DNA from: Candidatus Nanohaloarchaea archaeon
GTDB lineage: Archaea > EX4484-52 > GLR71
Direction of reading: 5' to 3'
Assembly (NCBI GenBank): GCA_030594675.1
Contig: JAUVES010000002.1
Location: forward strand, 1 to 34,645
DNA: 34,645 nt
Shown: piece after piece, positions 7,490-34,645 of the stretch
Position numbering within the stretch: position 1 is the stretch's first letter
Layout of the letters: each line of letters opens with the position of its first letter
Position numbers and translations under genes: made by a program
Notes under the pieces: model-generated
What the model was told of the DNA's origin: nothing
Seen by the model: the letters and a program-made list of their open reading frames with translations, nothing else
Databases searched by the model: none

Positions 7490-10400
7490 CTATTTCTCCC
7501 AAACGCCAATCAGATGCTTGTTGTTCTCGTCTTCGCCCCAATTATGCACAACAACCATATGTTGTCCTTCGCCCATTTTCTCCTTGTTGTTGAAGTTTAT
7601 GTTGTTGTATTCAAGCCCTGTTTGTATCCTGTATATCTTGTCAATCCCGAAACCGAAGCTTGGGTTTGGCATCTTTTCTATTTCTCCTGACTGGATGTAT
7701 GGGATTCTTCGCTCTATTGAGCTTATATCTCCTTTAGAATACACGACATATGCTTTTGCGCTTTTGCCTTCTGCCAGAATTCCCTGTGTCAATGCCATGT
7801 AGTTTGCACCGGAAGATACATTGTTGAATGTCCCTCCTGCATGGATAAGCCCTGCAAGAGTTCCTCCTGCAAAGTTTGTTGCCACGTATTTTGCCGCTGT
7901 ATCTTCCACTGGCGAAAAGCCGGAACCTACAAATTTCACAACAACAAAGCCGGATGTTATTTCAAAATTCCTTGTTTTGCTGGCATAAACACCGAAGGTG
8001 TTGTTGCACCAAAACACAACACTGTGCGAGCCCCTTGAAATCCCAAAAACAAACCTGTAGTAGTCCAGTTGAGTGTCATTTGCCATTGTGATGTTTTGTG
8101 CCCCGTCCAAAGAGTATCCGCACCAAGAGACTCTCTGGTCCAAAGAGCTGTTGAACCATGTATCTCCCCCGTGCATCTCTGTTGGGGGGTATATAATTGT
8201 GATTTGCGGGGCAAGCGCGTCTACTTCAAAGTATATTGTGGTTGAATTCATGTTTCCTGCTGTGTCATTGGCGTATACTGTAATGTAGTGTGTGCTTTCA
8301 GACAAAATGGTGGTATTTGCATCAATAGCAGTTGTCCAAGCGCCCGTAATGTTTGTTCCCCCGTCAATTGCGTACCACATTGAATCCGGATATAGGTCGC
8401 TCTGTGTGGCGTTTATGTGGGGGGTGTTATCGTCTGTTGTTGTGCTTGTTGGCTCAAAGATTGTTATTGTTGGTTTTGTTATGTCAACTGTGAAGTATTT
8501 GGTTGTCGAGTTCATGTTTCCTAAAGTATCGTTGCAGAAGAATGTAACATTATGGGAACCTTCGCTGACGATTGACAGATTGTTCCAATTGCCTGAACTG
8601 TTTGTCATTGTTACATTCGCTGTTCCATCCAATGAATAACCGCACCAATCACCGGCTTCGTCGAGTGTTATGTTGAACCAAGTCGATGTTGTATTGTATG
8701 ACTTGTTTTCCGGGGACTGTATTATTATTGTCGGTGGTGTTGAATCATCTGAAAGCACTGTAAAATTTGTCGTATTTTCAGCGTAAATTCCATTCGCATT
8801 CGTCAAATTGATTTTTACTGTGTGGATGCCTGCCGTCTGAGGTGCAATAAATGTGTAGTTATATCCGCCAGTAGAGTTCGTTACCGCAGCATTCTGTTCT
8901 GCGCCGACTGAAAGTATTGTTGGCTCGGGAACTGTGTATTTTCGGTTGTGCTCTGTATCAAACCCCTGTGTGTATGCTGAAGGTGTTGATGATTCTGAAA
9001 TTGAATAGGCACTTAAACGTATTCTACCATATCCTCCATTTCCGCCGGATTCGCCGCAACAAGCAACTGGCTGCCCAAGCCCATAAGATGTATTAGTAGT
9101 TAATGAAGAAATATTATTAGCTGTCATAAAAATACTTCCACCTGCACCGCCAGCCTGTCCTTCTCCGCCAGAAACCCAATCTCCGCCTTTGGCAGTAATA
9201 GAACCAGTAACCAACGAAGAATAAACCATAACTATGCCGCCGCCAGCGCCGCCAAAAGCAGTTGGTCCTCCATTACTTCCACCTCCACCTCCGGAACCTA
9301 AGAATGTGGTTGAAAGATCTGAAGAACCATATGTTGTTCCGCCCCGCCCCCTATATTCACTAACACTCTGTGCCGTCCCATCACTGCCCGTAGTTCCATG
9401 ACCTCCACCGCCCCCCCCGGCACGGTCATTTCTCGGACTTGAAATCTGCTGTCCGCCTCCGCCTCCGCCTAAATTAACGAATCTGTTTGCAGTGCCTTTG
9501 CCTTGATAGCTTTCACCTTGTATGCCTACGGCATTTCCAGGCCAACTTCCCCAAGTTCCACCAACACCCCCTCTATATCCTTTTGCAGTGACATTGATAG
9601 TTCCCTGAATGTTGACTATTCCGTTCGCCCTGAAAACCACGATTCCTCCTTTATATCCATCCCATGCCGGTGCTGTTATGCTTGCCCAGGAATCGACAGT
9701 CACACTAGTGTATTGGGGAACACGGACAACCTGCGTTACTGTAGATGTTGTCGAATCAAATGTGCCCGAAGTATAATTGTTTTTTAATGAGGTATCAAGA
9801 GTTAGAGTCGTTGTTCCCCCGCCAGAATCTATCTTTTTGAATTCGTATGTTCCGGCTGCACCGCCAGAACTGTTTTGCATTTGTATTATTAGAATTTCGT
9901 CCCCATCTGAAAAAGCGGTTCCGCTATTGACTGCTATTATATTGTCTCCTGTGTTTTCGTTTCCAGTTAAATAAGTATAAGTATTTATTACTGTGTTTGC
10001 ATAGGAAACGGTTAATGGTCCGCTGGAGCCATCACCATAAAAATCCATCACATTGAAATAATCGCTTAAGCTTGGAGCTTCAGGATTTCCATAATACATA
10101 TACAATGTCATATTGCCGTTATCCGCGATAGACGGAACTTTCACCCAAATCAAGGCATTGTTTGCAGTCCAGTTTTCAATCCAGAACGAGATATTCTGCT
10201 CTATGCCGCTTATTGTGTTAAGTGAGGTAAATCTTGTGTCATTGCCGTTAGAATTTGCCTTTGTGAAGTTGAAATTTAACGATGTTAGATTTACAAGAAC
10301 CTGATAATCTGTTTGTTCTGTCGTCGAGCCGTTTATTATGATTGCCTTACGGTATGGCCACAATGCCTGTGACTCGCCTGCTGGAGTGTAATTGCCGGGG

Positions 10401-13400
10401 TTTATAACATTGACAAGTTGCCCGTCCAAAAAAATATTAATGCTGTTATTCACAATATTAGTATTGTCCGGCTGAAGCATTGCCTGCCCAAAAACAGTTA
10501 CATTTTCGCCAGAGTTTACGATTAATGGTGTAAGAGTTTCGGTTATTTCTATTTGTTTTACCGCAAATGTTGTATTTATTATTGTTGCTGTGTTAAATCC
10601 GTCGGTCAAATTAGCATAGAATGAAACATTATATTGCCCCAAAGCCAGGCTTGAGAATGTATCATCATACCATGTTCCGCCAGAAACATCGCCCGAGAGA
10701 AAATAAATATAAGACTCTGACGAGTTTGAAACATTTGTCCAGACCTGTGAAATATTAACTGTTGGGTATTTGATGTTGCTTAAAGGAATATTCACAGAAA
10801 TATTGACCGTCTCACCAACATTCACGCTCGAAGTGCCTGTATTTACACCTTTTGCGTTCGGGCTTTGCAAATTAATTATTACTGTGAAATTCGTTTCATT
10901 TGAGCCAATAATGTTATTCGAATCAGTGAGATTGACTTTCAATGTATAATTGCCAACAATTACCGGAGCAATAAATGTGTAGCTATATCCGCCGGTAGAA
11001 TTTGTGATTATGGCGTTTTGCTCCGCGCCGACTAAAATTACGGTTGGCTCGATTGATGTGTATTTTCGAACGCGGACATCATCATAATACCCGGAAGAAC
11101 ATCTTCCAATCAAATGCACATTTATAAAATCCAGATTTGCTATTGCTGCATTTGTCATTTCCCCTCTTAATGTTGTAGCATCTACGGTGTCAAAATACCA
11201 TTTGATATTCGTTCCACTAACAATTGTTTTCGCATGATGCCAAGTATTAGCAGGAAAATTCCCTGCATCACTTGTCCAGCCAATAGAACTACCACCCTCT
11301 GTAACTCCGAATCGAGTATACATAACAGCATGAGGTTGTGTGTCTACCTCAAATTTCACAAAATTATTTGAATCTTCAAATAGGTAACTATAAGGTTGAT
11401 TGCCGGCAGCGACTCTACCTTGAAACCAATAATCAAAAACAAGACTGTGGGTGGATGTAAAATTATTAGAAATAGCGCGCTCTGATTCCGAAACATCGCA
11501 GGAATCCAGACCCTGGACTTTCATTGAATAACTTCCACCGCGTACATAAGTAGAATCAATTACTCCTTTACCAACTTGCTGCCAGGCATTTAATGTTCCG
11601 CCCTCAAAATCATCAAAGAACTTAAATGTTGCAGTACCGTTGCTTGAGGATGAAGCAGAAGGGTTCCCGTAATACATATATAATGTCGTATTGCCGTTAT
11701 CCGCGATAGACGGAACTTTCACCCAAATCAAGGCATTGTTTGCAGTCCATTTTTCAATCCAGAACGAGATATTCTGCTCTATGCCGCTTATTGTGTTAAG
11801 TGAGGTAAATCTTGTGTCATTGCCGTCAGAATTTGCCTTTAGGAAGTTGAAATTTAACGATGTTAGAGTTACAAGAACCTGATAATCTGTTTGTTCTGTC
11901 GTCGAGCCGTTTATCGTGATTGCCTTACGATATGGCCACAATGCCTGTGATTCGCCTGCTGGAGTGTAATTGCCGGGGTTTATAACGCTTACAGCCTGAC
12001 CGTCTAAAAACAGATTCATATTGTTGTTTGCAACCGGAGTGCCGTCCGCTGTATATGTCGCATGACCAATGACTGTGACTGAGTCTCCTGGGATTACAAG
12101 CGTTTGGGTTAATGATTCAGTTAATATTATGTTGGTACTTGTAATTGTCCTCGTCTCGGTCTGGTTCACATTCCCTGCCAAATCCTGTGCGTAGGCAGTG
12201 TAGGTGTAGGTACCGTCTTCCAGGTCAGTGAAGTTGTGGTACAATCTGTAGAGTCCGGTGTTGTAGGAGGCGTTGATTTCTTCGGGGGAGAGGGCACGGT
12301 TCCAGATGCGGACTTCGTCTATGGTGCCGTTGAAGCATGTCGATGACCCACATTGCCAATATTCATCACGACCAATTTTTGTAGTTACGGGTGCAATATT
12401 GATATTTCCTGTAAGAGAATATGGAAAATCACGAGTATTTTCTGCCCCATTAATATATACTCGCATATAAGAACCATCATAACTAGCCACAATATGATAC
12501 CAATTTCCAACTAAAAAAGAATCACTATTCGATATACCACCATTCCAATCACTACCATCGGTAGATATTCTCCATTCGACATTATCGGATGATGCCCCTC
12601 TTGCTAACATCCAACCATAGTTACCGCCGCCAGAATGTTTAGATGCAACCCTTAAATTATTGTCCGCATTTGCTTTCACCCACGCCTCAATAGTAATCGC
12701 ATCAGTGATATTCAAACTTACATCATTCCCGCAATCCACATAATCATTCATACCATCAAACCTAAGGGCTTTGCCGAATTTCCCGCTTGTCGTCCAGCCA
12801 GAGCAGTTGCCTGTGCAGTTGTCTAATCCGGGGTTCATGTTGGTTAGGGTGCCGTTGTTACCGTAGGTTGACCAGTCTCTTGCGAAGGTGTCGTTCTCGC
12901 CGGCTTCAAGGTTGAACCTCCACCAGCCGACCAAAGAGTTGTTCCAGTCGATGAAGGCGGTGATGTTATTGGTGTCGTTTGCTGTGACATTGATGTATGT
13001 GTAATCGTTGCTTGTGGTGTTGCCGTCGTCAGGGGTGGGCGGGACGAAGTAGATGTCGGGGTTTGTTGTATCAATAGTTATGGTTCTTGTGTCAGTCTGG
13101 TTCACATTCCCTGCCAGATCCTGTGCGTAGGCTGTGTAGGTGTATGTTCCTTCTGCGAGGTTGGTGAAGTTTGTTTCTAATCTGTATAGCCCTGTATTGT
13201 AGGAAGCGTTGATCTCTTGGGGGGTTAGGACACGGTTGTAGATTTTTACCTCGTCGATGGTGCCGTTGAAATGTTCATCGCCGCCTCCTGCATTAACACC
13301 AATATCAAAGTATCCGTTAGAAAGTGTCTCTATTTGGTTATTATAGTTACAACTTGCATTTAATATCCCATTTACATATACTTTCATATTATCTGAAGCC

Positions 13401-16400
13401 AAGTGTAAATCATAAGTTGCAACAACATGTGTCCATTCATTGAGGTTAACACTACCTGTGTCTGAAAGACAGGCAATTACCGAGGGAAACCCCCAGTTAA
13501 TCTGAAATCCTAATTTATAATCGTTTAGGTAATTAAAACCATATGCATTGTTAGATCCATTTTGTTTTTCTACAATTCCCAACATCACATTTTCAATTGG
13601 GTTAATCCACGCTTCAATACTTATCTTATCTGTCGGGCTTAAACTTGAGGAGTCAGTTATTCTTACATAATCATTAACTCCGTCAAACATCATTCCTTTA
13701 CCGAACTTCCCTGAATCTGTATAATTAGAACAGTTGACACCCGTACAGCTTCCGTTGTTGCCCCAACTCGACCAGTCCCTGAAGAACGTGGAATTTTCTC
13801 CTGTCTCTTCGTTGAACCTCCACCACCCTACCAGACTTCTGTTCCAATCTATGAATGATGTAAGGTTGTTCGGACTCAAGACATCAGATACTGAAACATT
13901 TACATAACTGTAGTTCCTGTTCACATAATCGTTGTCTGTGTCTGTGGGCGGGACGAATTCTATTGTTGGGGGTATTGTGTCAACTGTGAATGCTATGCTT
14001 GTTTGGTTTTGGTTTCCTGCGGTGTCATTTGCGTACAAAGTCAATGTTGACTGCTGGTTGTCAATGGCAGTAAATGTTGTGTTGCCGGATAGTGTTGTAT
14101 TGATGCTGTTGTATTCGTACCAGACAGAATCAATGTATGGGTCTGTTGCTGTGTAGTTTAGGTCAAGTGCTGTTGTTGGGTATGTTGTGTTTTCCGGAAG
14201 GATTATTTCTACGAATGGTTGTGTTATATCAACTGTGAAGTATTGTGTTGTTGAGTTCATGTTGCCTACAGTGTCGTTGCAGGAAAATGTTACATTGTGG
14301 GAACCTTCGCTGACGGTTGACAGATTGTTCCAGTTGCCTGAACTGTTTATCATTGTGATGTTTTCTGCCCCGTCCAAGGAATAACCGCACCAATCAACGC
14401 CGCTTGCATCTGCCACTGTTGCATTGAACCAGATTGACTGGGTGTTGTATGACTTGTTCTCGGGGGACTCTATTGTTATTGTTGGAGGTGTTGAATCGCC
14501 TGAACTTGTTATTATAAAACTGAAAATTTCTGAAGTGTTCATATTCCCTGCTGTGTCATTCGCATATACAATCCATCTTATTGTTGATCCTATGCTTGAG
14601 TTTACTGTCTTTGTGACATTCGACCAGCTTTCTGTGCCTATCATAGCAGCATAGGAGTCGTTATAGAATGTGCCTGTGCCGTTGTCGAAGGAGAAAATAT
14701 ATCCTGCAAGGGCATAATTGTCTTCCCAGTATAAGCTGAACAATACATCTTTTCCTGCCTCTGTTGAGTTTGTCTGGTTGAGGGAATATTGTGGATAGGT
14801 TGTGTCATCGCCTATCATTAAAGTTCGCGTCTCTGTCTGGTTGACATTGCCTGCAAGATCCTGCGCGTAGGCTATGTAGGTATAGGTGCCGTCTGACAAG
14901 TTAGTGAAATTATGGTATACTCTGTAAAGGCCTGTGTTATAGGATGCATTGATCTCTTCGGGGGAAAGGGTTCGATTGTGGATACGGACTTCATCTATTG
15001 TGCCGTTGAATTGTTCAGGACCGCTGCCTGAATACGCCCCCTCCCTTGAGCCGTATGTGTCTCCTATATGCAGGTTAATTGTATTTACCTGGGGTGTTAT
15101 TGATGCTGGCTGCGTCGACTGCAATACACTATCTATGTACATTTTGAGGCTGGAATTATCATAAGTTATTGCAAAGTGTTTCCAATCGGAAGACCATGAA
15201 TCTGTTGCAGATGATACAACTTTTTCGTTCCCGCTTGACCATTTTGCTGTTTTGTTGGCTGTGTTGCCGCCTGCAGTTGTAAACTCTCCGCCAACATAGA
15301 GTTCGCCGTTCCAGACAGCAAATGCATTTACAAAAGCAGTCACTCCTAAGCCTAATGGGCTCCAGTCTGTGCCGTTCCATTTGGCCGTGTAGTTTGCTGA
15401 GCTGCCGCCAGCGGTTGTGAACCATCCACCCGCATATAGTTCGCCGTTGTATACTGCAAGCAAGAATACATCACTACTCGTTCCTGAGCCTAGTGCACTC
15501 CAGTCTGTGCCGTTCCATTTGGCTGTGTAATTTGCTGAGTTGCCGCCGGCTGTTGTGAACCATCCGCCCGCATATAGTTCACCGTCCCAGACAGCAAGCG
15601 AATATACGTCATTACCCACTCCGGAGCCTAGTGCGCTCCAGTCTGTGCCGTTCCATTTAGCTATGTAGTCTGCTGAATTGCCGCCGGCTGTTATGAAATC
15701 TCCGCCTGCGTATAGTTCACCATCCCAGACAGCAAGCGAATATACATCATTACCCACTCCGGAGCCTAGTGCACTCCAGTCTGTGCCATTCCATTTAGCT
15801 ATGTAGTCTGCTGAGTTGCCGCCAGCTGTTGTGAACAGTCCGCCTGCGTATAGTTCACCGTCCCAGACAGCAAGAGAGTGCACACCATCACCCATTCCAG
15901 AACCTAACGGGCTCCAGTCTGTGCCGTTCCATTTGGCTATGTAGTCTACCGTGTTCCCGCCGGCAGTCCAGAAGTATCCACCTGCATAAAGTTCACCGTT
16001 CCAAACCGCAAGTGCAAATACCGCTCCATTCGTTCCTGAGCCTAGTGCACTCCAGCCTGTGCCATTCCATTTGGCTATTTTGCTTGCTGGATTGCCGCCT
16101 GCAGTTGTAAAATATCCGCCCGCATATAGTTCGCCGTTCCAGACAGCAAAACTGCGCACATGATCATTCATTCCTGAACCTAAGGCGTTCCAGCTTTTTG
16201 CTGAATCGGAGCCAAGATAGAATTTGAGCTTTCCGTCTTTATCCAGAAATAACTGGTATGAGCCTTTGTCAATAAGTCCCTGGTAATAATCAGATATATT
16301 GCTGTATGTTTCAGCAGGCTTGAACCATCCCTCAATTGTGAATGAATTTGTAAGGTCAAGAGAATTACTGTCTGGTATAGTGATATAGTCATTTGTTCCA

Positions 16401-27269: not shown

Positions 27270-27274
27270 TTTTT
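27270..27274 (+). terminator. T5 tract after tRNA-Val
   Basis: CAAACTTTTTGG, 10 nt after the CCA end. Confidence 0.4.
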
Positions 27275-27278
27275 GGAC

Positions 27279-27442: not shown

Positions 27443-27468
27443 AGCAAAAGGCATCATATTTGTAATGT

Positions 27469-27545
27469 GCTCCTGTAGTGTAGTCCGGTAATCATTTGGG
27501 ACTCTCACTCCCAAGACCCGGGTTCGATTCCCGGCGGGAGCACCA
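27469..27545 (+). tRNA. trnE: tRNA-Glu(CUC), no intron; CCA encoded
   Basis: Acceptor GCTCCTG/CGGGAGC (one U-G pair), anticodon stem TGGGA/TCCCA, loop CUCUCAC, T-arm CCGGG-TTCGATT-CCCGG, discriminator A, CCA, then T5 at 27547-27551. Confidence 0.9.
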
Positions 27546-27631
27546 ATTTTTCAGTTCTTTAAGAAAAATATATATACTACCCACAACAAAAATAATATAT
27601 TGATATAGTACGATAGCGATTGGTGCCTTTT

Positions 27632-29551
27632 ATGCTCGGTTCAAAAATAAATGAAAATTCTGATTTAGACGCAATATCTGACAGGATACGAGAAAACGAT
27701 GTCCAGAGAAAATTAGTGGAACTTGACATTGCAAAACGGATTCTAAAGCTTGAAAACCAGCAAGAAAATATGCAAGATACAATCGGGGCTGTCAATGACT
27801 TAAAGAGCCTAAAAGATGTAATAACAAATGCTACGCAAATAAAAACAAAATTAAGGGAAATTGAAGATTTAAAATTTTTGGAACGCTTAGAAGTTGTTGA
27901 AACACAGGAAACAATTGACGGGCTTGCAGCATCCCATAAAGAAATGAATGAAAAAGTGAATTTAGTAACTGATGCAATCAAAAATCTAAAAGATCTTAAA
28001 CTGCCGCAAGGCCAAACGACGATACAAACAAGCGACATTACAAAAGATATACAGCCAAAACTTGAACGCATTGAAAGGCAATTAAATGAAATTGAAATAA
28101 GAAAAATCGATAAAAAAGACACAGATTACCTAAAAGAACAGATGCAAAGCACAAAAAAACAGATAGATGAATTAACAAACGAGACAGATAAGCTTATATC
28201 CACAATAAAAATCGGCTTGGATGCACAAGCAGGCAGAATAACACAGGCAGTTGAAAAAGCAGATTCAATAAATGCTGTTAAGGTTCAGGCGGAATCGTGG
28301 GTAAAATTTAGCGAAACACAAAGAAAGGTAAATGAAAAATTCGACTATGTTCTTGAAAAAATTAACAGCCGCATGAAAAAAAAGGATGACGAAATAGAAA
28401 AATCATTATTATTTGTAAATGAATTAAATAATGCGCTTAAAAAATACAAGCTGGAAAATATCGCTTCTGCACTTGAAAATGTTTCATTGGTTGACAAAAA
28501 AATCGATGCTAAATTCGAGGAATGTTTAAAACCGGCAATTGATGAAGAACTAAAAGATGTTGTATCTGTTGTCGACACACTTCTTCAGGAAGTAAAAAAT
28601 ATTGAAAATAAGACAAACATAAAACTTGGAAACGAGGTTGCAAATGTAAGCAAAATGATTCTCAACACTCAAAAAGAGCATGTCAAAAAAACAGGCGCAT
28701 TTGAATCAGACATAAGCACCCTGACGAATCGTGTTTGTGGTATAGAAGAAGTTCAGGACAAAGGACACCAGACACATGAAAAAGTCAATGAGCTTGCAGA
28801 AAAGCATGCAGCACTTGAAACCACCACAAACGATTTTTTACTTGAAAAAGATTTTGATGGGTACAAAAAAGAAGTTGAGGATAAAATATCTCTGTTGGAA
28901 AAAGCCATATTGGAAAAAGAAGTTCAAACAACGCAAGATAATAAGACCGATATAGAAGCCATTATCAACCTTAAAATTCAAGAGGTTTCAAAAAACGCGT
29001 TTGGTAAAATAACCCAAGACTTAAAGCCGTTGGTTACGCGCATAAACGAGCTTACGGATGATGTTGACCAAATGAAGGACTTGCGCTCTGACATGGTTGA
29101 TGACATAAATAAAATGCTTTCAACAGAAAAAGAAAATACACACAAACCTACAGAAACACATGTTTCTGAAATTCTTAAGACAACAGGTATTGAAGAACGC
29201 GTTTCTGATATAAAAAACGAACTTAACTCATTAAAAAGCAATGGTGTGGCTCAAAAAATTTCTGCAATGGAAAAACGACTTGAAGGAATAGACCATAATG
29301 GAACAATGCAGAAAATGGCTCAATTGGAGAAAGATATATCTCTGATGAAACGCAATGGGGGGGTATCAAATCTTGTTTCCCTTAAAAAATCCCAACAGGA
29401 TATACCGGCAGAAATAGAACATGAATTGAATAATAAAATGTCCTCTATTGAAAACGAGAACACGCTTCTAAGGCAGGAAATAGAAAAGATAAAAGAAGCA
29501 TATTTCCAAATGGTTCAATTTCAACAGCAGACACCGCTTATTATTGAATGA
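27632..29551 (+). CDS. Long coiled-coil protein (639 aa from ATG 27632)
   Basis: E/K/L/I/Q/N-rich with heptad-like periodicity throughout and no Cys or Trp-rich globular segment. GGTG lies 6 nt upstream of ATG 27632 (the track start, TTG 27620, is less likely). An AAAATATATATA box lies about 55 nt upstream. The antisense ORFs at 27577-28122, 28345-28578 and 28978-29241 are low-complexity artefacts. Confidence 0.75.
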   Translation: MLGSKINENSDLDAISDRIRENDVQRKLVELDIAKRILKLENQQENMQDTIGAVNDLKSLKDVITNATQIKTKLREIEDLKFLERLEVVETQETIDGLAASHKEMNEKVNLVTDAIKNLKDLKLPQGQTTIQTSDITKDIQPKLERIERQLNEIEIRKIDKKDTDYLKEQMQSTKKQIDELTNETDKLISTIKIGLDAQAGRITQAVEKADSINAVKVQAESWVKFSETQRKVNEKFDYVLEKINSRMKKKDDEIEKSLLFVNELNNALKKYKLENIASALENVSLVDKKIDAKFEECLKPAIDEELKDVVSVVDTLLQEVKNIENKTNIKLGNEVANVSKMILNTQKEHVKKTGAFESDISTLTNRVCGIEEVQDKGHQTHEKVNELAEKHAALETTTNDFLLEKDFDGYKKEVEDKISLLEKAILEKEVQTTQDNKTDIEAIINLKIQEVSKNAFGKITQDLKPLVTRINELTDDVDQMKDLRSDMVDDINKMLSTEKENTHKPTETHVSEILKTTGIEERVSDIKNELNSLKSNGVAQKISAMEKRLEGIDHNGTMQKMAQLEKDISLMKRNGGVSNLVSLKKSQQDIPAEIEHELNNKMSSIENENTLLRQEIEKIKEAYFQMVQFQQQTPLIIE

Positions 29552-29558
29552 TTTTTTT

Positions 29559-32500
29559 CTAACACCCGCTTGGGCTTCCTGTAAATTCAGCTGAAACACC
29601 GGTGCAGTCAGTGTATGCCTTTAAAGCCAGGAATTCTAAACACCCCATACCGCAGCCGGACACTGCAAACATGCCGCCAACATCAAATGTTGTTGAGTCG
29701 TTCTTCAAGACGCAATAAGTCCCGTCCTTCTTAAATGCAACAACCTGCTTGACTGTGACATTGTTCATTCCTGTGTTTGATACTAATGCAGAAAGCAAGA
29801 GCATCTTTACTGAATAATCCACCGCTCCAGAATCGATATATATTGTGATTGTGTTCTCACCAACTGTGAAGTTGCCTGCGTCGACTGTTATGGTTGCAGT
29901 CGCGCCATTGGAAAGGGTTCCTGAATAATTTACTGTTGGATTTCCGTTAAATGATACGCGCGGGTTTGTTGTATCTGCGTCCAAATCCGCTGTGTTGTAA
30001 GTATTTGCAATCTCTGCCTGTGATAATGCCGTATTGTAAACCCTCACTTCATCAATAGTCCCTGTAAATGAGTTTCCGACAACAAACGCGTCATCGTTTG
30101 TATTTATTGCCGTTGAATAATCAGCAGTTACAGATTCAACGCTGTTTACATACAGTTTCATCTCGTCTGTCCCGCCTGCGCTTCGGTTATAAGTTAACGC
30201 AATATGGTTCCATCCGGCAGATATTGTGGCTGTTATTGTCTGATTGTTTATCCTTGCAACAGCGTGCGTTGCATTTGCGTTGATTGCATACGCATTGCCT
30301 TTCGAAATGCCGTTCGCGATTTCCGCGCCGATTGAAAGGATTGTTGGTTCTGTAGAAGCGTATTTGCGGATGCGGACATCATCTGCATAATCGTCTCTAA
30401 CGCCAGCCCATGAATCTGAATATATTCCAATTTGTGTGCATGCGGTAGCATCTGTATCCGTGCCCGTAATTCTTGATATTCCGTCAATATATACAGTAAA
30501 GAAACCATCAGATGTTCTGGTTATGTCATAAGTATGCCAACTCCCTGTTGCCTGTGCATAAATGGAACCAATTTGCCCAGATGGACCAGACAACACAACC
30601 CCCCCACTTGCTACTTTCAATCTAAATTTGCGTGTATCACCATTCATAATGAACTCGAAGAAAATACCATTATTGTCTCCGCCATTAGAACATTTTAGTC
30701 GTGCATGCCATCCTGAGTAGGTGCCAGAAGACGCTGTTTTTTTACCGATTCCATATGTACCATCCGTTCTATACAGATGCATTGCCTTGACTTGTGGTGC
30801 GTTATCAACAATATCAACAGTTCCGCCATGAGAGTTAAGAATTGTAGTCCACGCGGGATTGATAGTATAGTCCCCATCCTCAAAATCATCAAAGAATTCA
30901 AATGTCTCAGTCCCATTACTATCTGTGCCCGCCCCCGCATTCCCATAATACATATAAACAGTATTGTCTGCCGCGCCCGCATAAATTTCTGGAACCTCAA
31001 CCCAGAATGTTGAGTTGCCGCTTGTTGTGGAGCAGTTCTCAGTCCAGAAGTCAATCGCTTCTTCTACCCCTGTCGTTTGGTTGAGCCATGTGAATCGCGT
31101 GTCGTTGCAGTACTTTTGTATTTTACCGAAATCGTAAAGCTCGGATGTGTTTATGCTGTCAATCTTTATCTGGTAGTCTGTAAGATATGTGTCTTCTGCG
31201 GATGTTTCCAAGACTGTTGGTTCAGTGGTGGTGTATTTTCGGACAAAAACATCATAATAACAGACATCAACAACATTGCTGCTAGAACTATATTTGACCT
31301 TGAATCTCATACAATTACCAAATGTTCCTGTGGTGTTTTCTCTTATTTCCATACGACCAGATATTCCATTCCATCCAATATATGAAACATCCCCTAAATT
31401 TCCGCTTTTAGAGCCTTCAAAAAATATCGATCTGTCAAAAAGATTTATGGTTTTGTAGTTCCACTCACTTGCATTTTTCATGATAGTATATTTGTAAAGA
31501 ACATTCGTTAAAGGTGCCCCAGTATTTGTCATATCTATATAGTCAGAATTAAGTCCGTACTGTATACCTCCGGGATTATGTCCGCCGCCATAATCTTGAC
31601 CAATCATAGAATAAACATTCGGAGTTGTGTCTGCCATAATGCCAAAATCATGAGCCCCATGATATGTGAATTGTCCATAACCGCTACCGAAATCTTCAAA
31701 TAATGTGGACAGCACATAACTGTCTGAATTTCCTATTGTAAAACCAAGAGTTTTATAATCAACTTCATCGTCACGGCTCCAATCAGCAAAATCATCTGCG
31801 GAGTCATAGAAATCAAAAGTCGCAGTCCCGTTGCTCTCTGTACCCGCTCCCGACTTCCCATAATACATATAAACCGTATTGTTCCCGGTTGTAAGGTTTG
31901 CCTTTACCCAAACGCTTGCATTGTCCTGCGAAAAATTCTGTTCAACCCAGTATGGCAGTTCTGTTTGTGTGCCTGTTGTGTCATTGAAATATGTAAAGCG
32001 CAAATCCTTGAATGTGTCGTTCATGCCCGAAACCCATGAAACTGTGTAGTTGAACTGATAATCAGTCAAATCTGTTGTTGTGTTGACTATTATCGCTTTT
32101 CTTTTAGTCCAGGAAGAATTCCACCACGCGTCGCGCGCATCCTGTATGTATATTGGCGTTTTGTATGCCCATTCAGAATAAACGCCGCCTGAAGAAGGGC
32201 TCACCCACGCAGACAAGGTAATAGCATCAGTCATGTCAAGCGCGGCATCATCAGCAACAGCAACATAATCATCCCCGTCAAACTGCAACGCAGCATTGAA
32301 TTTGCCGGATGCATTATATGCGGCGCCAGTAACAGTTCCTGTATTCCCATTGCCCGAAGAATCCAAAGCATTGCCATCAAAATGCCACCAGCCGGCAAGA
32401 CCGTTGATGCCGGAAGACGAACTGCGCCCGGTAAATGTGATTGTGGGCGTTCCGGCGATTGAAGTCAGATTGAAGTAATTAACAGTGCCGGACACAACAG

Positions 32501-32729
32501 AATTATTCGCTGCAACTACTGTGTTCTTTAAATTAACATTAGAAATTTCAACAATTGAATTAGCGCAATAAGTAATCCCTTTCTCGCCTGTTGCCGACTC
32601 TGTCGCAGCATCAGTGGTCGCCTTTGTGTAATCAAACATCCATGAAACAATCAAAGTGCTTATAGCCACAGTAAAAACAATAAGAAGAACAACAGTTATA
32701 AGAGCCGATATTCCTTTCTTTGGCGCCAT
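29559..32729 (-). CDS. Pilin-adhesin fusion: class III signal peptide/pilin N-terminus + LamG + two DUF2341/ConA-like cassettes + LamG + pilin C-terminal domain (1,056 aa)
   Basis: I moved the start to ATG 32729, giving MAPKKG|ISALITVVLLIVFTVAISTLIVSWMFDYTK, nearly the same helix as the pilin at 24234-24704. LamG 1: LAGWWHFDGNALDSSGNGNTG...FNAALQFDGDDYVAV...ITLSAWVSP. DUF2341 x2: WTKRKAIIVNTTTDLTDYQ...YMYYGKSGAGTESNGTATFDFYD and YLTDYQIKI...DTRFTWLN...YMYYGNAGAGTDSNGTETFEFFDDFEDG, each followed by a ConA-like region ending in RKY(T/A)xxEPT. C-terminal LamG: WNHIALTYN...MKLYVNSV...FTGTIDEVRVYNTALSQAEI. The last ~75 aa align to the small-pilin C-terminal domain. Confidence 0.85.
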   Translation of the reverse strand: MAPKKGISALITVVLLIVFTVAISTLIVSWMFDYTKATTDAATESATGEKGITYCANSIVEISNVNLKNTVVAANNSVVSGTVNYFNLTSIAGTPTITFTGRSSSSGINGLAGWWHFDGNALDSSGNGNTGTVTGAAYNASGKFNAALQFDGDDYVAVADDAALDMTDAITLSAWVSPSSGGVYSEWAYKTPIYIQDARDAWWNSSWTKRKAIIVNTTTDLTDYQFNYTVSWVSGMNDTFKDLRFTYFNDTTGTQTELPYWVEQNFSQDNASVWVKANLTTGNNTVYMYYGKSGAGTESNGTATFDFYDSADDFADWSRDDEVDYKTLGFTIGNSDSYVLSTLFEDFGSGYGQFTYHGAHDFGIMADTTPNVYSMIGQDYGGGHNPGGIQYGLNSDYIDMTNTGAPLTNVLYKYTIMKNASEWNYKTINLFDRSIFFEGSKSGNLGDVSYIGWNGISGRMEIRENTTGTFGNCMRFKVKYSSSSNVVDVCYYDVFVRKYTTTEPTVLETSAEDTYLTDYQIKIDSINTSELYDFGKIQKYCNDTRFTWLNQTTGVEEAIDFWTENCSTTSGNSTFWVEVPEIYAGAADNTVYMYYGNAGAGTDSNGTETFEFFDDFEDGDYTINPAWTTILNSHGGTVDIVDNAPQVKAMHLYRTDGTYGIGKKTASSGTYSGWHARLKCSNGGDNNGIFFEFIMNGDTRKFRLKVASGGVVLSGPSGQIGSIYAQATGSWHTYDITRTSDGFFTVYIDGISRITGTDTDATACTQIGIYSDSWAGVRDDYADDVRIRKYASTEPTILSIGAEIANGISKGNAYAINANATHAVARINNQTITATISAGWNHIALTYNRSAGGTDEMKLYVNSVESVTADYSTAINTNDDAFVVGNSFTGTIDEVRVYNTALSQAEIANTYNTADLDADTTNPRVSFNGNPTVNYSGTLSNGATATITVDAGNFTVGENTITIYIDSGAVDYSVKMLLLSALVSNTGMNNVTVKQVVAFKKDGTYCVLKNDSTTFDVGGMFAVSGCGMGCLEFLALKAYTDCTGVSAEFTGSPSGC

Positions 32730-32770: not shown

Positions 32771-33865
32771 TCAATCAAACAGGTCTTCAAAATACTCATA
32801 ACCTAATACATATATATCGCTTCCGGACTGCATTTCAACAGGAAGGGACGGGACATGTATGAATGATGCAATACCCAAATCATTATCTGTATTGTTTTTT
32901 CCTTCAAGCCTGCTTAAAAATGACGGTGCATCCCTTTTATTGAAATAGCACGAAGCATTTGGCTGATTTGTAATGTTTGTAAGCCAGACTGTTTCATTGT
33001 CAATAACCATAATAGAATTGTTGAGAATTATGTTTTTTGCATTAGTTACATTAAACACATATGGGGGTGCTACAGGTGCGCTGTTTTGTTCCGCCACAAT
33101 TCCGGCAAAGCCATTAAAATTTGATTTTCCGACAATTGTTCCTGTAACAAGCACTTTATCTGCTTTGCCGGTCACATTTAAAAGATCATTTTCGTCACTT
33201 ATGTATGCGAACCCATAGACCCAATCGCCGCTGTTTGCACTGCCTGTAATTTTTTCGCATTCAATGAAATTCTGCTTTGCATACCCGTAGCTTTTTACGG
33301 TTATAAATGGGTCCTCAAGATTTTTAACAGATACTATGTTTGAGTAGGTTGTGTTTCTTTTGTATGCGACCTCAATTATTTCATCCTGCGCTCTTATGTG
33401 TGCGTTGGTTGAAACGCGTATTGTATATGGCGACTCCATTGAAACGGTTGTGTTTGGAACAAGGATTGTTGTTTTAAGCCCTCTTTTTTTAGCCAATGTT
33501 TCTAAGGTTTGCATCCAATCAGATATCGTGTTGTTTTCCATAAGTGTGAGGTTCTCATTGCCGTTGTTTACGGTGCCGTTAATAATGGCTTCTTTTACAG
33601 ACTCATTTGCAACATTGACAAACTTGCCGTTTGAAATCTCCCAATTAATCAAAGCCAATAATGCGCGCCTGCCGGATATCTCTCCGCTTCTTTCAATATC
33701 TTTTTCAATACCTACAACAAGATAATGCACTTCATCGGCACGAATCTTTTCAATAATCTTTGTTGTATGTGTGCTTGTCTTATCCATGTTTAATGCCAAA
33801 ACAAGAAAAATAGAAGACACTACAACAATAGTAAACATGGTATATACAAACCCTTTTTTCATCAT
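32771..33865 (-). CDS. Hypothetical secreted/membrane-anchored protein with pilin-like N-terminus (364 aa)
   Basis: I moved the start to ATG 33865, giving MMKKG|FVYTMFTIVVVSSIFLVLAL, with GGTG upstream and an ATGA overlap with the upstream stop. The rest is N/T/V-rich with many sequons. The function is not recognisable. Confidence 0.6.
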   Translation of the reverse strand: MMKKGFVYTMFTIVVVSSIFLVLALNMDKTSTHTTKIIEKIRADEVHYLVVGIEKDIERSGEISGRRALLALINWEISNGKFVNVANESVKEAIINGTVNNGNENLTLMENNTISDWMQTLETLAKKRGLKTTILVPNTTVSMESPYTIRVSTNAHIRAQDEIIEVAYKRNTTYSNIVSVKNLEDPFITVKSYGYAKQNFIECEKITGSANSGDWVYGFAYISDENDLLNVTGKADKVLVTGTIVGKSNFNGFAGIVAEQNSAPVAPPYVFNVTNAKNIILNNSIMVIDNETVWLTNITNQPNASCYFNKRDAPSFLSRLEGKNNTDNDLGIASFIHVPSLPVEMQSGSDIYVLGYEYFEDLFD

Positions 33866-34645
33866 GATTTCCACACCTCTAAAGTTATAAATGCGGGCCC
33901 ATACATCCATGGAATGTTTCCGGTTGTAATTGGCTTTTTTAAATAGATGCCAAGATCAAGTATGTCCGCATAAGCGGATAATGTGGCGTTAAGGCGGTCT
34001 TGAGCATCCTGATTCGCCTCGGCCTCTGTGTCAAACATGGCGCCGTAGCCTACTTGGGACGGGATAAAAATATTGTATTCTAATGATGACTGCGGCAGTA
34101 TAGAACAATTGAGTGTTGTGCATACATCAGAAATATTTATTGTGTTGTTTTCAGTTGTTGTATTGAAATATGACGGGTCTATATATATGGTTGACGGCAG
34201 CGCTCGAAGGCGAGGAGATTCAAATACTTGATTATTTGCCGCCCCGTACGGCTCAACTGTTACGGTTACATTCTCGCTGTCAATTTGTGCTATATGCAGA
34301 TTAGCGCTTGTTATCTGGTGATTATCGAAATCCTCTGTGTAGTTTTTAGGGTTTTCATCAATTCCGCCAAACGGGGTTATTGCTGTGACTTCTATATAGC
34401 CATATTGGAATTTGTTTTCAACAGACCAGTCATACTCGGTATAAACATAAGATGACGAATCTTCATCATTCTCGGGGTCTGAATAAAGCTCCACATCTGT
34501 TTCACCCCAGAAATCATTTTCGAAACTGTCAATATATACACTCAATACATTTGTTGTATCTTTATTTGCGGCCACATAATCTGTCAAATTTATATCTGCA
34601 TCATAAGTTGCACCCGGATTTGTAACATTTAAAATACTATTGTTA
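33862..34645 (-). CDS. Hypothetical protein, 5'-truncated by the window edge
   Basis: The track start at 34587 is a TTG. The frame stays open upstream to the window end (...NNSILNVTNPGATYDADINLTDYVAANKD...), so the gene probably begins outside the window. It is an acidic, sequon-rich extracellular-type sequence. Confidence 0.55.
   Translation of the reverse strand, partial: NNSILNVTNPGATYDADINLTDYVAANKDTTNVLSVYIDSFENDFWGETDVELYSDPENDEDSSSYVYTEYDWSVENKFQYGYIEVTAITPFGGIDENPKNYTEDFDNHQITSANLHIAQIDSENVTVTVEPYGAANNQVFESPRLRALPSTIYIDPSYFNTTTENNTINISDVCTTLNCSILPQSSLEYNIFIPSQVGYGAMFDTEAEANQDAQDRLNATLSAYADILDLGIYLKKPITTGNIPWMYGPAFITLEVWKS

What the first reader, a model, noticed from the sequence alone, without database searches (positions are those of the whole stretch)
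7490..34645. Candidate adhesive type IV filament system: filament genes flanked by two giant proteins built from the same LamG/DUF2341 modules
Seen in sequence: on one strand, in transcription order, lie two single-domain T2SSF platform genes (26827-24835), four 155-168-aa pilin paralogues (24704-22661) and the 5,012-aa secreted protein (22528-7490). Gaps between them are short, and one junction is an overlapping TAATG. After a tRNA cluster and one coiled-coil gene, a second minus-strand block encodes a truncated protein, a 364-aa protein with a pilin-like N-terminus, and a 1,056-aa pilin. The interior of that pilin consists of LamG and DUF2341 modules that recur in the 5,012-aa protein: the same LxGWW(R/H)F domain start, the same YMYYGN...NGT(A/E)TF(K/E)FFDDFE end of DUF2341, and the same RKY(T/A)xxEPT linker. 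Established knowledge: archaeal type IV pili are assembled from class III signal-peptide pilins by a FlaJ/TadBC-type platform plus an ATPase. LamG/ConA-like, beta-helix and propeller domains are typical ligand-binding modules. Inference: the locus encodes a filament whose binding specificity comes from a modular pilin-adhesin and a co-located giant secreted adhesin, which would suit cell-cell or host attachment. I cannot tell from sequence alone whether this combination has been described.
Basis: partly seen in the sequence, partly recalled or inferred. Interest (0 to 1): 0.8.

Follow-up and report, generated by a model that had tools for sequence, protein, structure and literature searches.

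The report
Archaeal pilus genes with giant adhesins
A contig from a small, probably host-dependent (DPANN) archaeon carries the membrane platform and subunits of a type IV pilus next to two strain-variable sticky proteins: a 5,012-residue secreted giant and a pilus subunit with lectin-like modules spliced into it. The layout was already predicted in outline for archaea, but this locus gives new clues to how such adhesins attach to the filament.

Summary
On the minus strand lie a split FlaJ/TadC-type platform (two T2SSF genes), four PilA-type pilins with class III signals, and a Sec-secreted 5,012-aa protein. That protein contains beta-helix, LamG, propeller, DUF2341 and Ig domains. A second block encodes a 1,056-aa pilin.

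The window is the whole contig. It has no assembly ATPase and no prepilin peptidase. Relatives (DPANN, Aenigmatarchaeota-like) have a PilB3-type ATPase and KaiC beside the same platform pair.

Three new points:
- The large pilin is a pilin1-type subunit carrying a nested insert, pilin[LamG[(DUF2341+jelly-roll)x2]]. Its family swaps the inner cassette. The gene is cleanly absent from an about 90% identical strain.
- The giant ends in an uncharacterised 140-aa domain with an NPSFGFP motif. Elsewhere this domain is a stand-alone gene inside pilus operons, sits just upstream of a conserved four-gene set of minor-pilin-like genes, or is fused to one of those pilins.
- LamG/DUF2341/beta-helix genes are enriched downstream of the platform pair (13 versus 2, p about 9e-4).

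Best reading: an adhesion pilus with exchangeable adhesins, the giant acting as a PilY1-like add-on.

DUF2341 or LamG proteins near archaeal pilus loci have been reported before, so this is a new variant of a known kind.

The parts
25736..26827 (-). Platform protein A: a single T2SSF domain equivalent to the N-terminal half of a FlaJ/PilC/TadC protein
   Evidence: PF00482 E 2e-18. It matches ArlJ profile positions 6-243 of 555, far below the equivalog cut-off. It is conserved as an A-B pair in 80 DPANN loci.
24835..25725 (-). Platform protein B: a single T2SSF domain equivalent to the C-terminal half of FlaJ/PilC/TadC. It starts 10 nt after A.
   Evidence: PF00482 E 3.7e-16. It matches ArlJ profile positions 275-547 of 555.
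24234..24704 (-). Pilin1 (156 aa), PilA-type, cleavage predicted at RKA|VSPLIA. It is the scaffold type of the large pilin.
   Evidence: TIGR02537 27.8 bits (cut-off 20). Pilin_N E 5.7e-4. Motif. It aligns to both ends of the large pilin.
23701..24174 (-). Pilin2 (157 aa), cleavage predicted at KKA|VSPLIA
   Evidence: Motif and hydrophobic stretch. TIGR02537 gives only 15.6 bits, below the cut-off. It is 94% identical in L004-L006.
23128..23634 (-). Pilin3 (168 aa from the ATG), cleavage predicted at RKG|ISPLIA. It is conserved with pilin4 upstream of a large adhesin gene in relatives.
   Evidence: TIGR02537 30.8 bits. 67% identical ortholog in L003. Ortholog in L123.
22661..23128 (-). Pilin4 (155 aa), cleavage predicted at KKG|ISPILA. 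Its start overlaps the pilin3 stop (TAATG).
   Evidence: TIGR02537 38.7 bits. 76% ortholog in L003 and 91% in L010. In L125 its ortholog follows the four-gene minor-pilin-like set.
7490..22528 (-). Giant secreted protein (5,012 aa). It has a Sec-type signal peptide (judged by eye), 232 N-glycosylation sequons, two beta-helices, three LamG domains, two DUF2341 modules, about 15 Ig-like domains and a conserved C-terminal domain.
   Evidence: Possible own TATA-like element in the 132-nt gap upstream.
14939..16549 (-). Giant aa 1994-2530: LamG domain with a DUF5122 beta-propeller nested inside it (blades of 46 aa, 138-nt repeats)
   Evidence: Splice test: the joined halves match Laminin_G_3 1-151 at 109.8 bits. 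The halves alone give 38.2 bits (positions 1-63) and 60.7 bits (67-151). Repeat family D1. DUF5122.
11024..11938 (-). Giant aa 3531-3835: DUF2341 plus LamG-like jelly-roll module ending in RKYTSIEPT. It is 33% identical to module 2 of the large pilin.
10085..10360 (-). Giant aa 4057-4148: second DUF2341 copy. Its DNA is 93% identical to the first copy, and a Gly-rich region follows.
   Evidence: (D4).
7493..7921 (-). Giant aa about 4870-5012: conserved C-terminal domain (CTD) with an NPSFGFP motif. It is always C-terminal, is restricted to DPANN among the members with a source name, and is linked to pilus loci elsewhere.
   Evidence: The AF2 model has pLDDT 83 and pTM 0.72. No match in Pfam, PDB sequences, PDB folds or BFVD.
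27025..27545 (+). Three tRNA genes (27025-27137, 27145-27257, 27469-27545), two with introns. They separate the two blocks and are not part of the system.
27620..29551 (+). 643-aa coiled-coil protein on the opposite strand. It is conserved in L004 and L005, and its relation to the system is unknown.
29559..32729 (-). Modular pilin (1,056 aa) with cleavage predicted at KKG|ISALIT. Layout: pilin N part (aa 1-105), LamG N-half (106-186), insert of two DUF2341+jelly-roll modules (187-806), LamG C-half (807-915), pilin C part (916-1056).
   Evidence: TIGR02537 21.6 bits. DUF2341 x2 and LamG. Splice test. Pilin1 aligns to aa 1-83 and 944-1056. Family alignment A2. The gene is absent from L004 and L005.
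32771..33865 (-). 364-aa protein with an N-terminal KKG|FVYTMF... transmembrane segment. It looks class III-like but no model recognises it, and its function is unknown.
   Evidence: It is 88% identical in L004 and L005.
33862..34645 (-). 3' part of a gene cut by the contig end (at least 432 aa in L005), with no family match

Best explanation
The contig comes from a DPANN archaeon of the Aenigmatarchaeota-like clade. It carries part of an adhesion-type type IV pilus system of the PilA/PilB3-PilC3 kind.

Shown:
- The platform is split into two genes, corresponding to the N- and C-halves of FlaJ/TadC.
- Four PilA-type prepilins follow it.
- Next comes a 5,012-aa secreted (Sec-type signal peptide judged by eye), heavily sequon-rich multidomain protein.
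- A separate unit encodes a pilin with binding modules nested inside its globular domain.

Inferred mechanism:
- A prepilin peptidase and a PilB3-type ATPase, probably with KaiC, are encoded elsewhere in the genome. They process the pilins after K-[GA] and polymerise them on the A+B platform.
- The 1,056-aa pilin keeps both the N-terminal assembly helix and the C-terminal part of the pilin fold. It can therefore enter the filament and display LamG plus two DUF2341/jelly-roll modules.
- The giant is not a pilin. It is exported by Sec and is proposed to be held on the pilus, most likely on a tip complex of minor pilins, through its conserved C-terminal NPSFGFP domain. This mirrors how bacterial PilY1 is carried by minor pilins.
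- Both adhesin genes are swapped or lost between close strains, so they probably set the attachment (host or surface) specificity.
For: Components:
- T2SSF x2 as complementary halves.
- Class III signals.
- Domain content of the giant and the large pilin.

Lineage and missing parts:
- All 80 related A-B loci are DPANN.
- Relatives have a T2SSE ATPase beside the pair, with a PilB3_C domain in L019, and a KaiC gene directly upstream. L123 has ATPase-A-B-pilins on one strand.

Linkage of adhesins to the pilus genes:
- GLR112 (L003) has orthologs of pilin3 and pilin4 followed by a LamG/DUF2341 protein of more than 1,314 aa.
- L123 has three pilins, a CTD protein, then a DUF2341 protein orthologous to the L003 protein.
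- LamG/DUF2341/beta-helix ORFs lie downstream of the pair 13 times and upstream 2 times, although there is less downstream sequence (binomial p = 9e-4).

CTD link:
- It is a stand-alone Sec-signal protein between the pilins and the DUF2341 gene in L123.
- It lies directly upstream of the conserved 405/224/190/240-aa class III-like set in L125 and in L128/L129. L129 is from RS_3_1, the MAG whose T2SSF is 93% identical to the window's.
- It is fused to the DUF7289-like member of that set in L085.
- Four of five CTD-centred loci carry pilus genes.
- CTD-like ORFs occur in 6 other of the 76 A-B loci, in L085, L071 and L078 and more weakly in L041, L046 and L077.

Nested pilin.

Strain variability:
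- The pilin gene is missing from L004 and L005, which keep a degenerate 3' remnant.
- A different secreted protein follows pilin4 in the 98% relative L010.

Prior predictions of the same logic: PMC4858521, PMC5498576.
Against: - There is no ATPase, KaiC, prepilin peptidase or minor-pilin set on this contig.
- The giant has a 132-nt upstream gap with a TATA-like element, so it may be transcribed alone.
- The large pilin lies in a different transcription unit, separated by tRNAs and an opposite-strand gene. It is dispensable in a close strain.
- The CTD has no known fold or function. One CTD locus (L126/L127) shows no pilus genes. In L041 and L046 a CTD-like domain sits on a membrane protein with a cytoplasmic wHTH-like domain. 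The CTD could therefore bind something other than the pilus.
- The shared modules are only 33-42% identical and are common in DPANN surface proteins.
- There are no expression, proteomic or imaging data.
Confidence: 0.7

Rival explanations
1. This is a secretion or surface-display machine rather than a long adhesive pilus. The pilin-like proteins would form a short pseudopilus or membrane-anchored array, like a bacterial T2SS or the Sulfolobus bindosome. That array would export or hold Sec-delivered CTD proteins and class III lectin-like proteins at the cell surface.
For: - Giant genes next to T2SS-like loci with small class III genes are interpreted this way in Omnitrophota.
- The platform proteins also give weak matches to bindosome BasF.
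- The CTD is always at the extreme C-terminus, as sorting or anchoring domains are.
- Class III signals on large binding proteins recall bindosome substrates.
Against: - The pilins are PilA/UpsA-like in size and sequence.
- An ATPase in a relative carries the PilB3_C domain of adhesion-pilus ATPases.
- Archaea have no outer membrane to cross.
- Stand-alone 170-190-aa proteins made only of the CTD suggest a structural part rather than a cleaved sorting tag.
Confidence: 0.15
2. The co-location is incidental. The giant and the large pilin would be ordinary DPANN surface adhesins sitting in a hypervariable region that happens to adjoin pilus genes. The giant would act independently of the filament.
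For: - LamG/DUF2341 proteins are abundant throughout DPANN and CPR genomes.
- The gene after pilin4 differs between 98%-related strains.
- GC content swings along the giant gene.
- The giant has a candidate promoter of its own.
Against: - There is a directional enrichment downstream of the platform pair.
- The pilin3-pilin4-large-adhesin order is conserved in GLR112 and L123.
- The CTD is found fused to, or directly beside, pilin-like genes in several genomes.
- The large pilin is itself a pilin, so it cannot be independent of the machinery.
Confidence: 0.12
3. The filament mainly serves DNA uptake or cell-to-cell transfer with the host, with DUF2341 proteins as required accessory parts. Adhesion would be secondary.
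For: In Methanococcus maripaludis, transposon hits in epd pilus genes and in a DUF2341 gene inside the epd locus abolish natural transformation. DPANN archaea depend on host contact.
Against: - No DNA-binding or nuclease domain was found in any protein of the locus.
- The domain repertoire (LamG, beta-helix, propeller, Ig) is typical of ligand or glycan binding.
- This reading does not exclude the adhesion reading.
Confidence: 0.1
4. Part of the picture is an assembly artefact. The giant ORF length or the junctions around the large pilin could result from collapsed or chimeric repeats.
For: - The giant contains a 300-nt repeat at 93% identity and six 138-nt tandem units.
- The junctions pilin4-giant and 364-aa gene-large pilin-coiled coil are seen only in this contig.
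Against: - The reading frame stays open for 15 kb with coherent domain boundaries.
- The flanks on both sides of the large pilin match L004 to the base. L004 retains a decayed remnant of the pilin's 3' end, which indicates a real deletion.
- The block order is reproduced in three other assemblies.
- GLR112 shows the same pilin4-to-LamG-protein junction.
Confidence: 0.03

Closest known systems
Euryarchaeal PilA-type adhesion pili (Haloferax volcanii PilA1-6 with PilB3/PilC3; 'clade 2' of Makarova, Koonin and Albers 2016, PMC4858521)
   Same: - The pilins are PilA/Pilin_N-type with K-[GA]|[VI]SP class III signals.
- An ATPase in a relative (L019) carries PilB3_C.
- A KaiC-family ATPase lies next to the platform.
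- Two tadC-like genes are noted for many clade 2 loci.
   Different: - The ATPase and KaiC are not adjacent here.
- The lineage is DPANN.
- The locus adds a 5,012-aa Sec-secreted protein and a 1,056-aa nested modular pilin.
Clade 1 / Epd pili of Methanococcus, Methanothermobacter and Thermococcus, with large DUF2341 proteins predicted as tip adhesins (PMC4858521; PMC10133366)
   Same: - There are two TadC-like platform genes, several class III proteins and large DUF2341 proteins in the locus.
- The DUF2341 proteins are proposed to sit at the pilus tip by analogy with PilY1.
- The DUF2341 gene is needed for a pilus-dependent function in M. maripaludis.
   Different: - The major pilins there are about 70-aa proteins of other families, with a dedicated EppA peptidase.
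- The pilins here are about 155-aa and PilA-like.
- DUF2341 here occurs inside a pilin and inside a 5,012-aa protein.
- The CTD was not described there.
Bacterial PilY1/PilC tip adhesins carried by minor pilins (discussed in PMC9934059)
   Same: Each is a large non-pilin protein with a Sec signal, a variable adhesive part and a conserved C-terminal part. The gene lies beside minor-pilin genes. In L125 and L129 the CTD gene directly precedes a four-gene set of pilin-like genes.
   Different: - No PilY1/Neisseria_PilC domain was detected.
- The CTD is a small beta-rich domain with no known relatives.
- The resemblance is functional analogy only.
Modular pilins of Streptococcus sanguinis (PilB with a vWA module, PilC with a ConA-like lectin module; PMC8179133, PMC9934059)
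   Same: A class III pilin is fused to an adhesive module of the ConA/LamG superfamily, and the module is presented by the filament.
   Different: - There the module is grafted onto the C-terminus of a short pilin moiety.
- Here the modules are inserted inside the pilin globular domain and nested two levels deep.
- The host is archaeal.
- The family exchanges its inner cassette among DUF2341, Gly-rich and fibrinogen-like inserts.
LamG-protein expansions in DPANN linked to pilus loci (Mia14 Micrarchaeota, PMC5498576; nanohaloarchaea, PMC10266531)
   Same: The LamG jelly-roll proteins are abundant in DPANN. Some are linked to type IV pili loci and genomic islands and are proposed to mediate host contact.
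   Different: Those reports describe no pilin fusions, no CTD, and no giant of this architecture.
Omnitrophota giant genes preceded by T2SS/Tad-like loci with small class III genes (bioRxiv 10.1101/2023.11.21.568195)
   Same: A giant secreted multidomain protein lies next to GspF-like genes and small class III signal genes, and is proposed to mediate prey or host adhesion.
   Different: Those are bacterial and diderm, with secretin, GspE and RcpC present. The proteins are far larger (over 10,000 aa) and carry enzymatic domains.

Membership tests
Type IV filament (T4F) system | Subunits with class III (prepilin) signal peptides and a hydrophobic N-terminal helix | tested here: met
   The motif and a 22-residue hydrophobic stretch are present in 5 proteins. 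TIGR02537 scores above its cut-off for 4 of the 5.
Type IV filament (T4F) system | Polytopic platform protein of the GspF/PilC/FlaJ/TadBC family | tested here: met
   Two PF00482 genes correspond to the N- and C-halves of FlaJ.
Type IV filament (T4F) system | Dedicated T2SSE/PilB/FlaI-type assembly ATPase | tested here: not met
   No T2SSE ORF is in the window, which is the whole contig. It is present next to the orthologous platform pair in relatives L019, L021 and L123. The genome of this organism could not be searched.
Type IV filament (T4F) system | Prepilin peptidase (FlaK/PibD/EppA type) | tested here: not met
   None is among the window ORFs scanned with Pfam and NCBIfam. Relatives' genomes were not examined for it.
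Archaellum (ArlJ operon) | ArlJ equivalog score plus archaellins and ArlF/G/H/CDE in the locus | tested here: not met
   ArlJ models give 86 and 51 bits against cut-offs of 550 and 400. The only other archaellum match in the locus is a weak ArlF hit on pilin4, at 20.6 bits against a cut-off of 110.
PilA/PilB3-PilC3 adhesion pilus (archaeal clade 2) | Pilin_N (PF07790) pilins | tested here: inconclusive
   Pilin_N matches have E values of 3.5e-5 to 5.7e-4 and scores of 21-25 bits. These lie just under the 25.2-bit gathering score. Pilin2 has no match.
PilA/PilB3-PilC3 adhesion pilus (archaeal clade 2) | PilB3-type ATPase (PilB3_N/PilB3_C domains) paired with the platform | tested here: inconclusive
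   This is seen only in relatives: PilB3_C at E 2.4e-5 in L019 and a weak PilB3_N in L123. It is absent from the window.
Modular (bimodular) type IV pilin | Class III signal and pilin moiety plus an extra functional module in one polypeptide | tested here: met
   The large pilin has the class III N-terminus, pilin1-like N and C parts, and LamG plus DUF2341 x2. Unlike the described cases, the module is inserted rather than appended.
PilY1/PilC tip adhesin family | C-terminal PilY1/Neisseria_PilC beta-propeller domain | tested here: not met
   Pfam scans of the whole giant in overlapping pieces found no such domain. The CTD model matches nothing in the PDB.
SPEARE-type giant proteins of Nanohaloarchaeota | VirB4/TraG-like ATPase domain and membrane anchoring in a giant protein | tested here: not met
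   No ATPase domain matched in the Pfam scans. No hydrophobic transmembrane-type segment is apparent after the signal peptide on reading the translation; no transmembrane predictor was run. The family description comes from PMC10266531.
DUF2341 / MJ1470-type 'component of type IV pili-like system' | PF10102 domain above the gathering score, in a gene in or beside a T4P locus | tested here: met
   DUF2341 scores 126.8 bits in the giant (2 copies) and 115.4 bits in the large pilin (2 copies). Locus context is shown.

The most novel reading that the evidence does not exclude
The 140-aa NPSFGFP C-terminal domain is a previously unrecognised, DPANN-specific 'plug' that docks Sec-secreted proteins of any size, from 170 to over 5,000 aa, onto a complex of four minor pilins at the tip of a type IV pilus. 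Together with a pilin family that exchanges binding cassettes nested inside a LamG domain, it would give these host-dependent archaea a modular, rapidly exchangeable system for choosing what or whom they attach to.
Probability: 0.35. Interest if true: 0.8.

Novelty: new variant of a known kind. Interest (0 to 1): 0.6.

Why it matters
[quoted passage not shown] What decides which host they stick to is largely unknown.

This locus and its relatives give a concrete, testable parts list:
- a split-platform PilA-type pilus;
- a pilin family whose binding cassette is exchanged inside a fixed scaffold;
- very large secreted adhesins that share a small conserved C-terminal domain, tied by gene fusion and gene order to minor pilins.

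If the docking idea holds, it would explain how non-pilin adhesins are mounted on archaeal pili, an archaeal counterpart of PilY1. It would also provide sequence markers (the CTD and the nested pilin scaffold) for finding host-specificity genes in metagenomes. If it does not hold, the locus is still a clear example of the already predicted link between pilus genes and DUF2341/LamG proteins.

Tried and rejected
- Exact look-up of the window's T2SSF protein found nothing.
- The metagenome scan with pilin4 returned only distant pilins of 40% identity or less, because the search patterns fell in the generic N-terminus. It could not test pilin4-giant synteny.
- AlphaFold2 on the full 1,056-aa pilin with a 9-sequence alignment gave pLDDT 35.7. 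The model was unusable, so no fold search was run on it. The nested architecture therefore rests on sequence splice tests.
The full HMMER scan had already found the family.
- The CTD profile against PDB sequences gave only chance matches to synaptotagmin (E about 0.3). Pfam gave nothing. Foldseek against PDB and BFVD found nothing below E 0.07.
- The 364-aa protein and the truncated upstream gene matched no Pfam or NCBIfam family and none of the relatives' minor-pilin-like proteins. Their role is unresolved.
- The archaellum, PilY1-family and SPEARE-family assignments were considered and rejected (see the membership tests).
- The TafC (Tat-fimbria) hit on the large pilin is only 29 bits against a cut-off of 410 and lies in the LamG part. 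It was dismissed.
- The bacterial promoter/terminator scan was not used because it does not apply to archaea.

Full report
**What is in the window**

On the minus strand, in transcription order:
- two single-domain T2SSF genes, 25736-26827 and 24835-25725, both with strong PF00482 matches;
- four pilin genes of 155-168 aa, spanning 24704 to 22661;
- a 5,012-aa ORF at 22528-7490.

Three tRNA genes lie on the plus strand. Two are 113 nt with introns and were found only by Rfam. A 643-aa coiled-coil gene on the plus strand follows them.

A second minus-strand block holds a gene cut by the contig end, a 364-aa protein and a 1,056-aa pilin. The window is the entire contig (P0001). Downstream of the giant lies an unrelated His-Xaa-Ser radical-SAM cluster.

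**Identity of the parts**

- Platform. NCBIfam places T2SSF protein A on the N-terminal half of the FlaJ/ArlJ profile (positions 6-243 of 555). Protein B falls on the C-terminal half (275-547). Both score far below the archaellum equivalog cut-offs. The two genes therefore form a split platform, not an archaellum component.
- Pilins. All four small pilins and the 1,056-aa protein start with a short basic leader, K-[GA]|[VI]-S-[PA], and a 22-residue hydrophobic stretch. The curated archaellin/pilin N-terminal model TIGR02537 passes its cut-off for four of the five. Pfam Pilin_N matches sit just under the gathering score.
- The 364-aa protein has only a looser KKG|FVY... start and matches no family.
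- The giant. It has a Sec-type signal peptide (by inspection) and 232 N-glycosylation sequons. It has two beta-helix regions, three LamG domains, two DUF2341 modules (one followed by a weakly LamG-like jelly-roll), a glycine-rich region and many Ig-like domains.
- One LamG domain in the giant hosts a DUF5122 propeller. Joining its two halves restores a full-length Laminin_G_3 match (1-151, 109.8 bits). The halves alone give 38.2 and 60.7 bits.

**The large pilin has a nested insert**

- Pilin1 aligns to residues 1-83 of the large pilin (43% identity, E 1.5e-15) and again to residues 944-1056 (E 4e-8).
- Between these parts lies a LamG domain that is itself interrupted. Its N-half alone matches profile positions 2-33, and its C-half alone matches 49-151. 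Joining them gives one continuous match over 2-151 at 75.5 bits.
- The interruption holds two DUF2341-plus-jelly-roll modules, each ending in the RKY..EPT linker.
- The closest relatives (P0002-P0009) share the pilin N part, the LamG halves and the C-terminal ...KAYTDCTGV..EF..PSGC tail. The inner cassette differs: other DUF2341 modules, a glycine-rich domain, or a fibrinogen-like domain.
- A full-length AlphaFold2 model was too poor to use (pLDDT 35.7). This architecture therefore rests on sequence evidence.

**Lineage and missing parts**

- A scan of one genome per species with a T2SSF profile returned 80 loci. All are from DPANN archaea labelled Aenigmatarchaeota, 'Nanohalarchaeota' or Nanobdellati, apart from two MAGs labelled Methanosarcinales. 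The nearest have 93-98% identity. In nearly all of them the A and B genes are adjacent.
- In more distant members a T2SSE ATPase lies nearby, with a PilB3_C domain in L019, and a KaiC-family ATPase lies directly upstream of A.
- L123 has ATPase-A-B-pilins on one strand.
- None of these genes, and no prepilin peptidase, is on the present contig.
- The system is therefore of the PilA/PilB3-PilC3 adhesion-pilus kind. The contig holds only part of it.

**Is the link to large adhesins more than chance?**

- MAG GLR112 (70% T2SSF identity) has orthologs of pilin3 (67%) and pilin4 (76%). A LamG/DUF2341 protein that runs off the contig after 1,314 aa follows them.
- L123 has an ortholog of that protein after its pilins.
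- Across 76 non-redundant A-B loci, ORFs similar to the giant's LamG, DUF2341 or beta-helix segments lie downstream of the pair 13 times and upstream 2 times. This holds although less downstream sequence was available (binomial p = 9e-4).
- The modules shared by the giant and the large pilin are only 33-42% identical and are widespread in DPANN and CPR surface proteins. By themselves they say little.

**A new connecting element: the C-terminal domain**

- The last 140 or so residues of the giant form a conserved domain with an NPSFGFP motif. A full HMMER scan of 1.84 billion representatives found it at the extreme C-terminus of other large Ig-repeat or beta-helix proteins. It also occurs as stand-alone 166-190-aa proteins, several of which consist of a Sec-type signal followed by this domain.
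- Members that carry a source name come from DPANN MAGs or uncultured archaea. One is a GLR112 fragment 54% identical to the giant's tail.
- The domain has no Pfam or PDB sequence match.
- Its AlphaFold2 model is confident (pLDDT 83, pTM 0.72). It is mainly beta-strands with three short helices. It has no significant Foldseek match in PDB or BFVD.
- Gene context ties it to pilus genes:
  - In L123 the stand-alone form sits between the three pilins and the DUF2341 protein.
  - In L125 and in L128/L129 a CTD protein directly precedes a conserved set of four class III-like proteins of about 405, 224, 190 and 240 aa. The last is DUF7289. L129 is from RS_3_1, the MAG closest to the window apart from CSMAG_1486.
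  - In L125 that set is followed by an ortholog of the window's pilin4 (E 1e-58).
  - In L085 the CTD is fused to the DUF7289-like member of the set, in an operon A-B-four pilins-four minor-pilin-like genes.
  - CTD or CTD-like ORFs occur in 6 other of the 76 A-B loci, in L085, L071 and L078 and more weakly in L041, L046 and L077.
- One CTD locus (L126/L127) shows no pilus genes. In L041 and L046 a CTD-like domain sits on a membrane protein with a wHTH-like N-terminus.

**Strain-level variation**

- Independent assemblies about 90% identical to the window (L004-L006) reproduce the order: truncated gene, 364-aa gene, coiled coil, tRNAs, A, B, pilins. This argues against a chimeric join.
- They lack exactly the 3.18-kb large-pilin gene. 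L004 keeps a decayed 38-nt remnant of its 3' end, and a TGAAT microhomology lies at both junctions. This points to a deletion.
- In L010 (98% T2SSF identity) the gene after pilin4 starts with a different signal-peptide protein.
- Both adhesin positions therefore vary between close strains.

**Most likely mechanism**

Shown: a split platform, PilA-type prepilins, a modular pilin, a Sec-secreted giant with binding-type domains, and the comparative links above.

Inferred:
- A peptidase and a PilB3-type ATPase encoded elsewhere process and assemble the pilins.
- The large pilin is incorporated through its intact helix and scaffold and displays its cassette.
- The giant is mounted on the pilus through the CTD, probably by binding the minor-pilin complex. 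This is the role PilY1 plays in bacteria.

I put about 0.7 on the general reading: an adhesion pilus with associated exchangeable adhesins. I put about 0.35-0.4 on the specific CTD-docking step.

Rival readings are a T2SS- or bindosome-like display machine, incidental co-location in a variable region, a DNA-uptake role (as for the M. maripaludis epd locus and its DUF2341 gene), and assembly artefacts in the repeat-rich giant.

**Comparison with what is known**

- Makarova, Koonin and Albers (PMC4858521) described archaeal pilus loci with two TadC-like genes and large DUF2341 proteins. They proposed these as PilY1-like tip adhesins.
- Golyshina et al. (PMC5498576) noted that LamG proteins are expanded in DPANN and that some are linked to pilus loci.
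- Modular pilins with a ConA-like lectin module are established in Streptococcus sanguinis.
- Giant genes next to T2SS-like loci with small class III genes are reported in Omnitrophota.
- DUF2341 occurs in proteins of over 4,000 aa in Patescibacteria.

The combination is therefore not new in kind. Literature searches did not turn up three things:
- an archaeal pilin with binding modules nested inside its globular domain and an exchangeable cassette;
- the NPSFGFP C-terminal domain and its ties to minor pilins;
- the clean presence/absence of these adhesin genes between near-identical strains.

**Verdict**

This is a new variant of a known kind. Its interest is moderate to high, mainly because it suggests a concrete and testable way in which DPANN archaea mount and exchange attachment proteins.

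Noticed in passing
window 1901-7509 (minus strand): A His-Xaa-Ser type radical-SAM cluster lies directly downstream of the giant gene. It contains an HxsD-like gene (6895-7509), an HxsC4-like rSAM gene (5900-6898), an 85-aa HxsD-related gene (5569-5826), HxsB (4107-5594; TIGR03978 428 bits, above the 370 cut-off), a DUF483 protein (3099-4076) and an HxsC-like gene (1901-3109). No HxsA-type precursor was looked for.
   Followed up: partly
window 27025-27137 and 27145-27257: Two 113-nt tRNA genes, presumably with introns, are found by the Rfam tRNA model (52.7 and 51.7 bits). ARAGORN misses them and reports only tRNA-Glu(CTC) at 27469-27545.
   Followed up: partly
P0004, P0006 (relatives of the large pilin): Members of the same pilin scaffold family carry a fibrinogen C-terminal-like domain (PF00147) or a glycine-rich domain (PF21722) in place of the DUF2341 cassette. 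MAG GLR112 encodes at least two paralogs (P0003 and P0009).
   Followed up: partly
L041 7442-8359; L046 11990-12964: Directly after T2SSF gene B, these Aenigmatarchaeota-type loci encode a protein with a wHTH-like DUF7342 N-terminus, one transmembrane segment and a CTD-like C-terminal domain. The CTD fold may therefore also occur on membrane-anchored, possibly signalling, proteins.
   Followed up: no
L077 15245-16435: A DUF7289-like class III pilin is fused to a LamG domain and a weak CTD-like tail. This is another pilin-adhesin fusion in a T2SSF neighbourhood.
   Followed up: no
L129 975-4398; L125 11451-14661; L002 386-3683; L085 14445-17783: A conserved four-gene set of class III-like proteins (about 405, 224, 190 and 240 aa; the last is DUF7289) recurs in this DPANN clade. 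It looks like a minor-pilin module. It is absent from the window.
   Followed up: partly
L010 4009-4331: In the 98%-identical relative, the gene after pilin4 begins MIKKFVFLVFALFFMASVSHAG..., which is unrelated to the N-terminus of the window's giant. The adhesin slot is replaced between very close strains.
   Followed up: partly
P0043, P0045, P0046: DUF2341 proteins of 1,684-1,725 aa form a related group. One of them (P0043) is annotated in 'Methanophagales virus GBV302', so this module may also be used by archaeal viruses.
   Followed up: no
window 27620-29551 (plus strand): A 643-aa coiled-coil protein with no family match lies between the two pilus-related blocks. It is 86% identical and syntenic in L004 and L005.
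   Followed up: no
window 7490-22528: GC content along the giant gene swings between 0.35 and 0.50 per kb. The gene also contains a 300-nt repeat at 93% identity (10064-10363 and 11642-11941) and six 138-nt tandem units (15239-16228). This suggests mosaic or recombining modules and makes the gene a risk for short-read assembly.
   Followed up: partly
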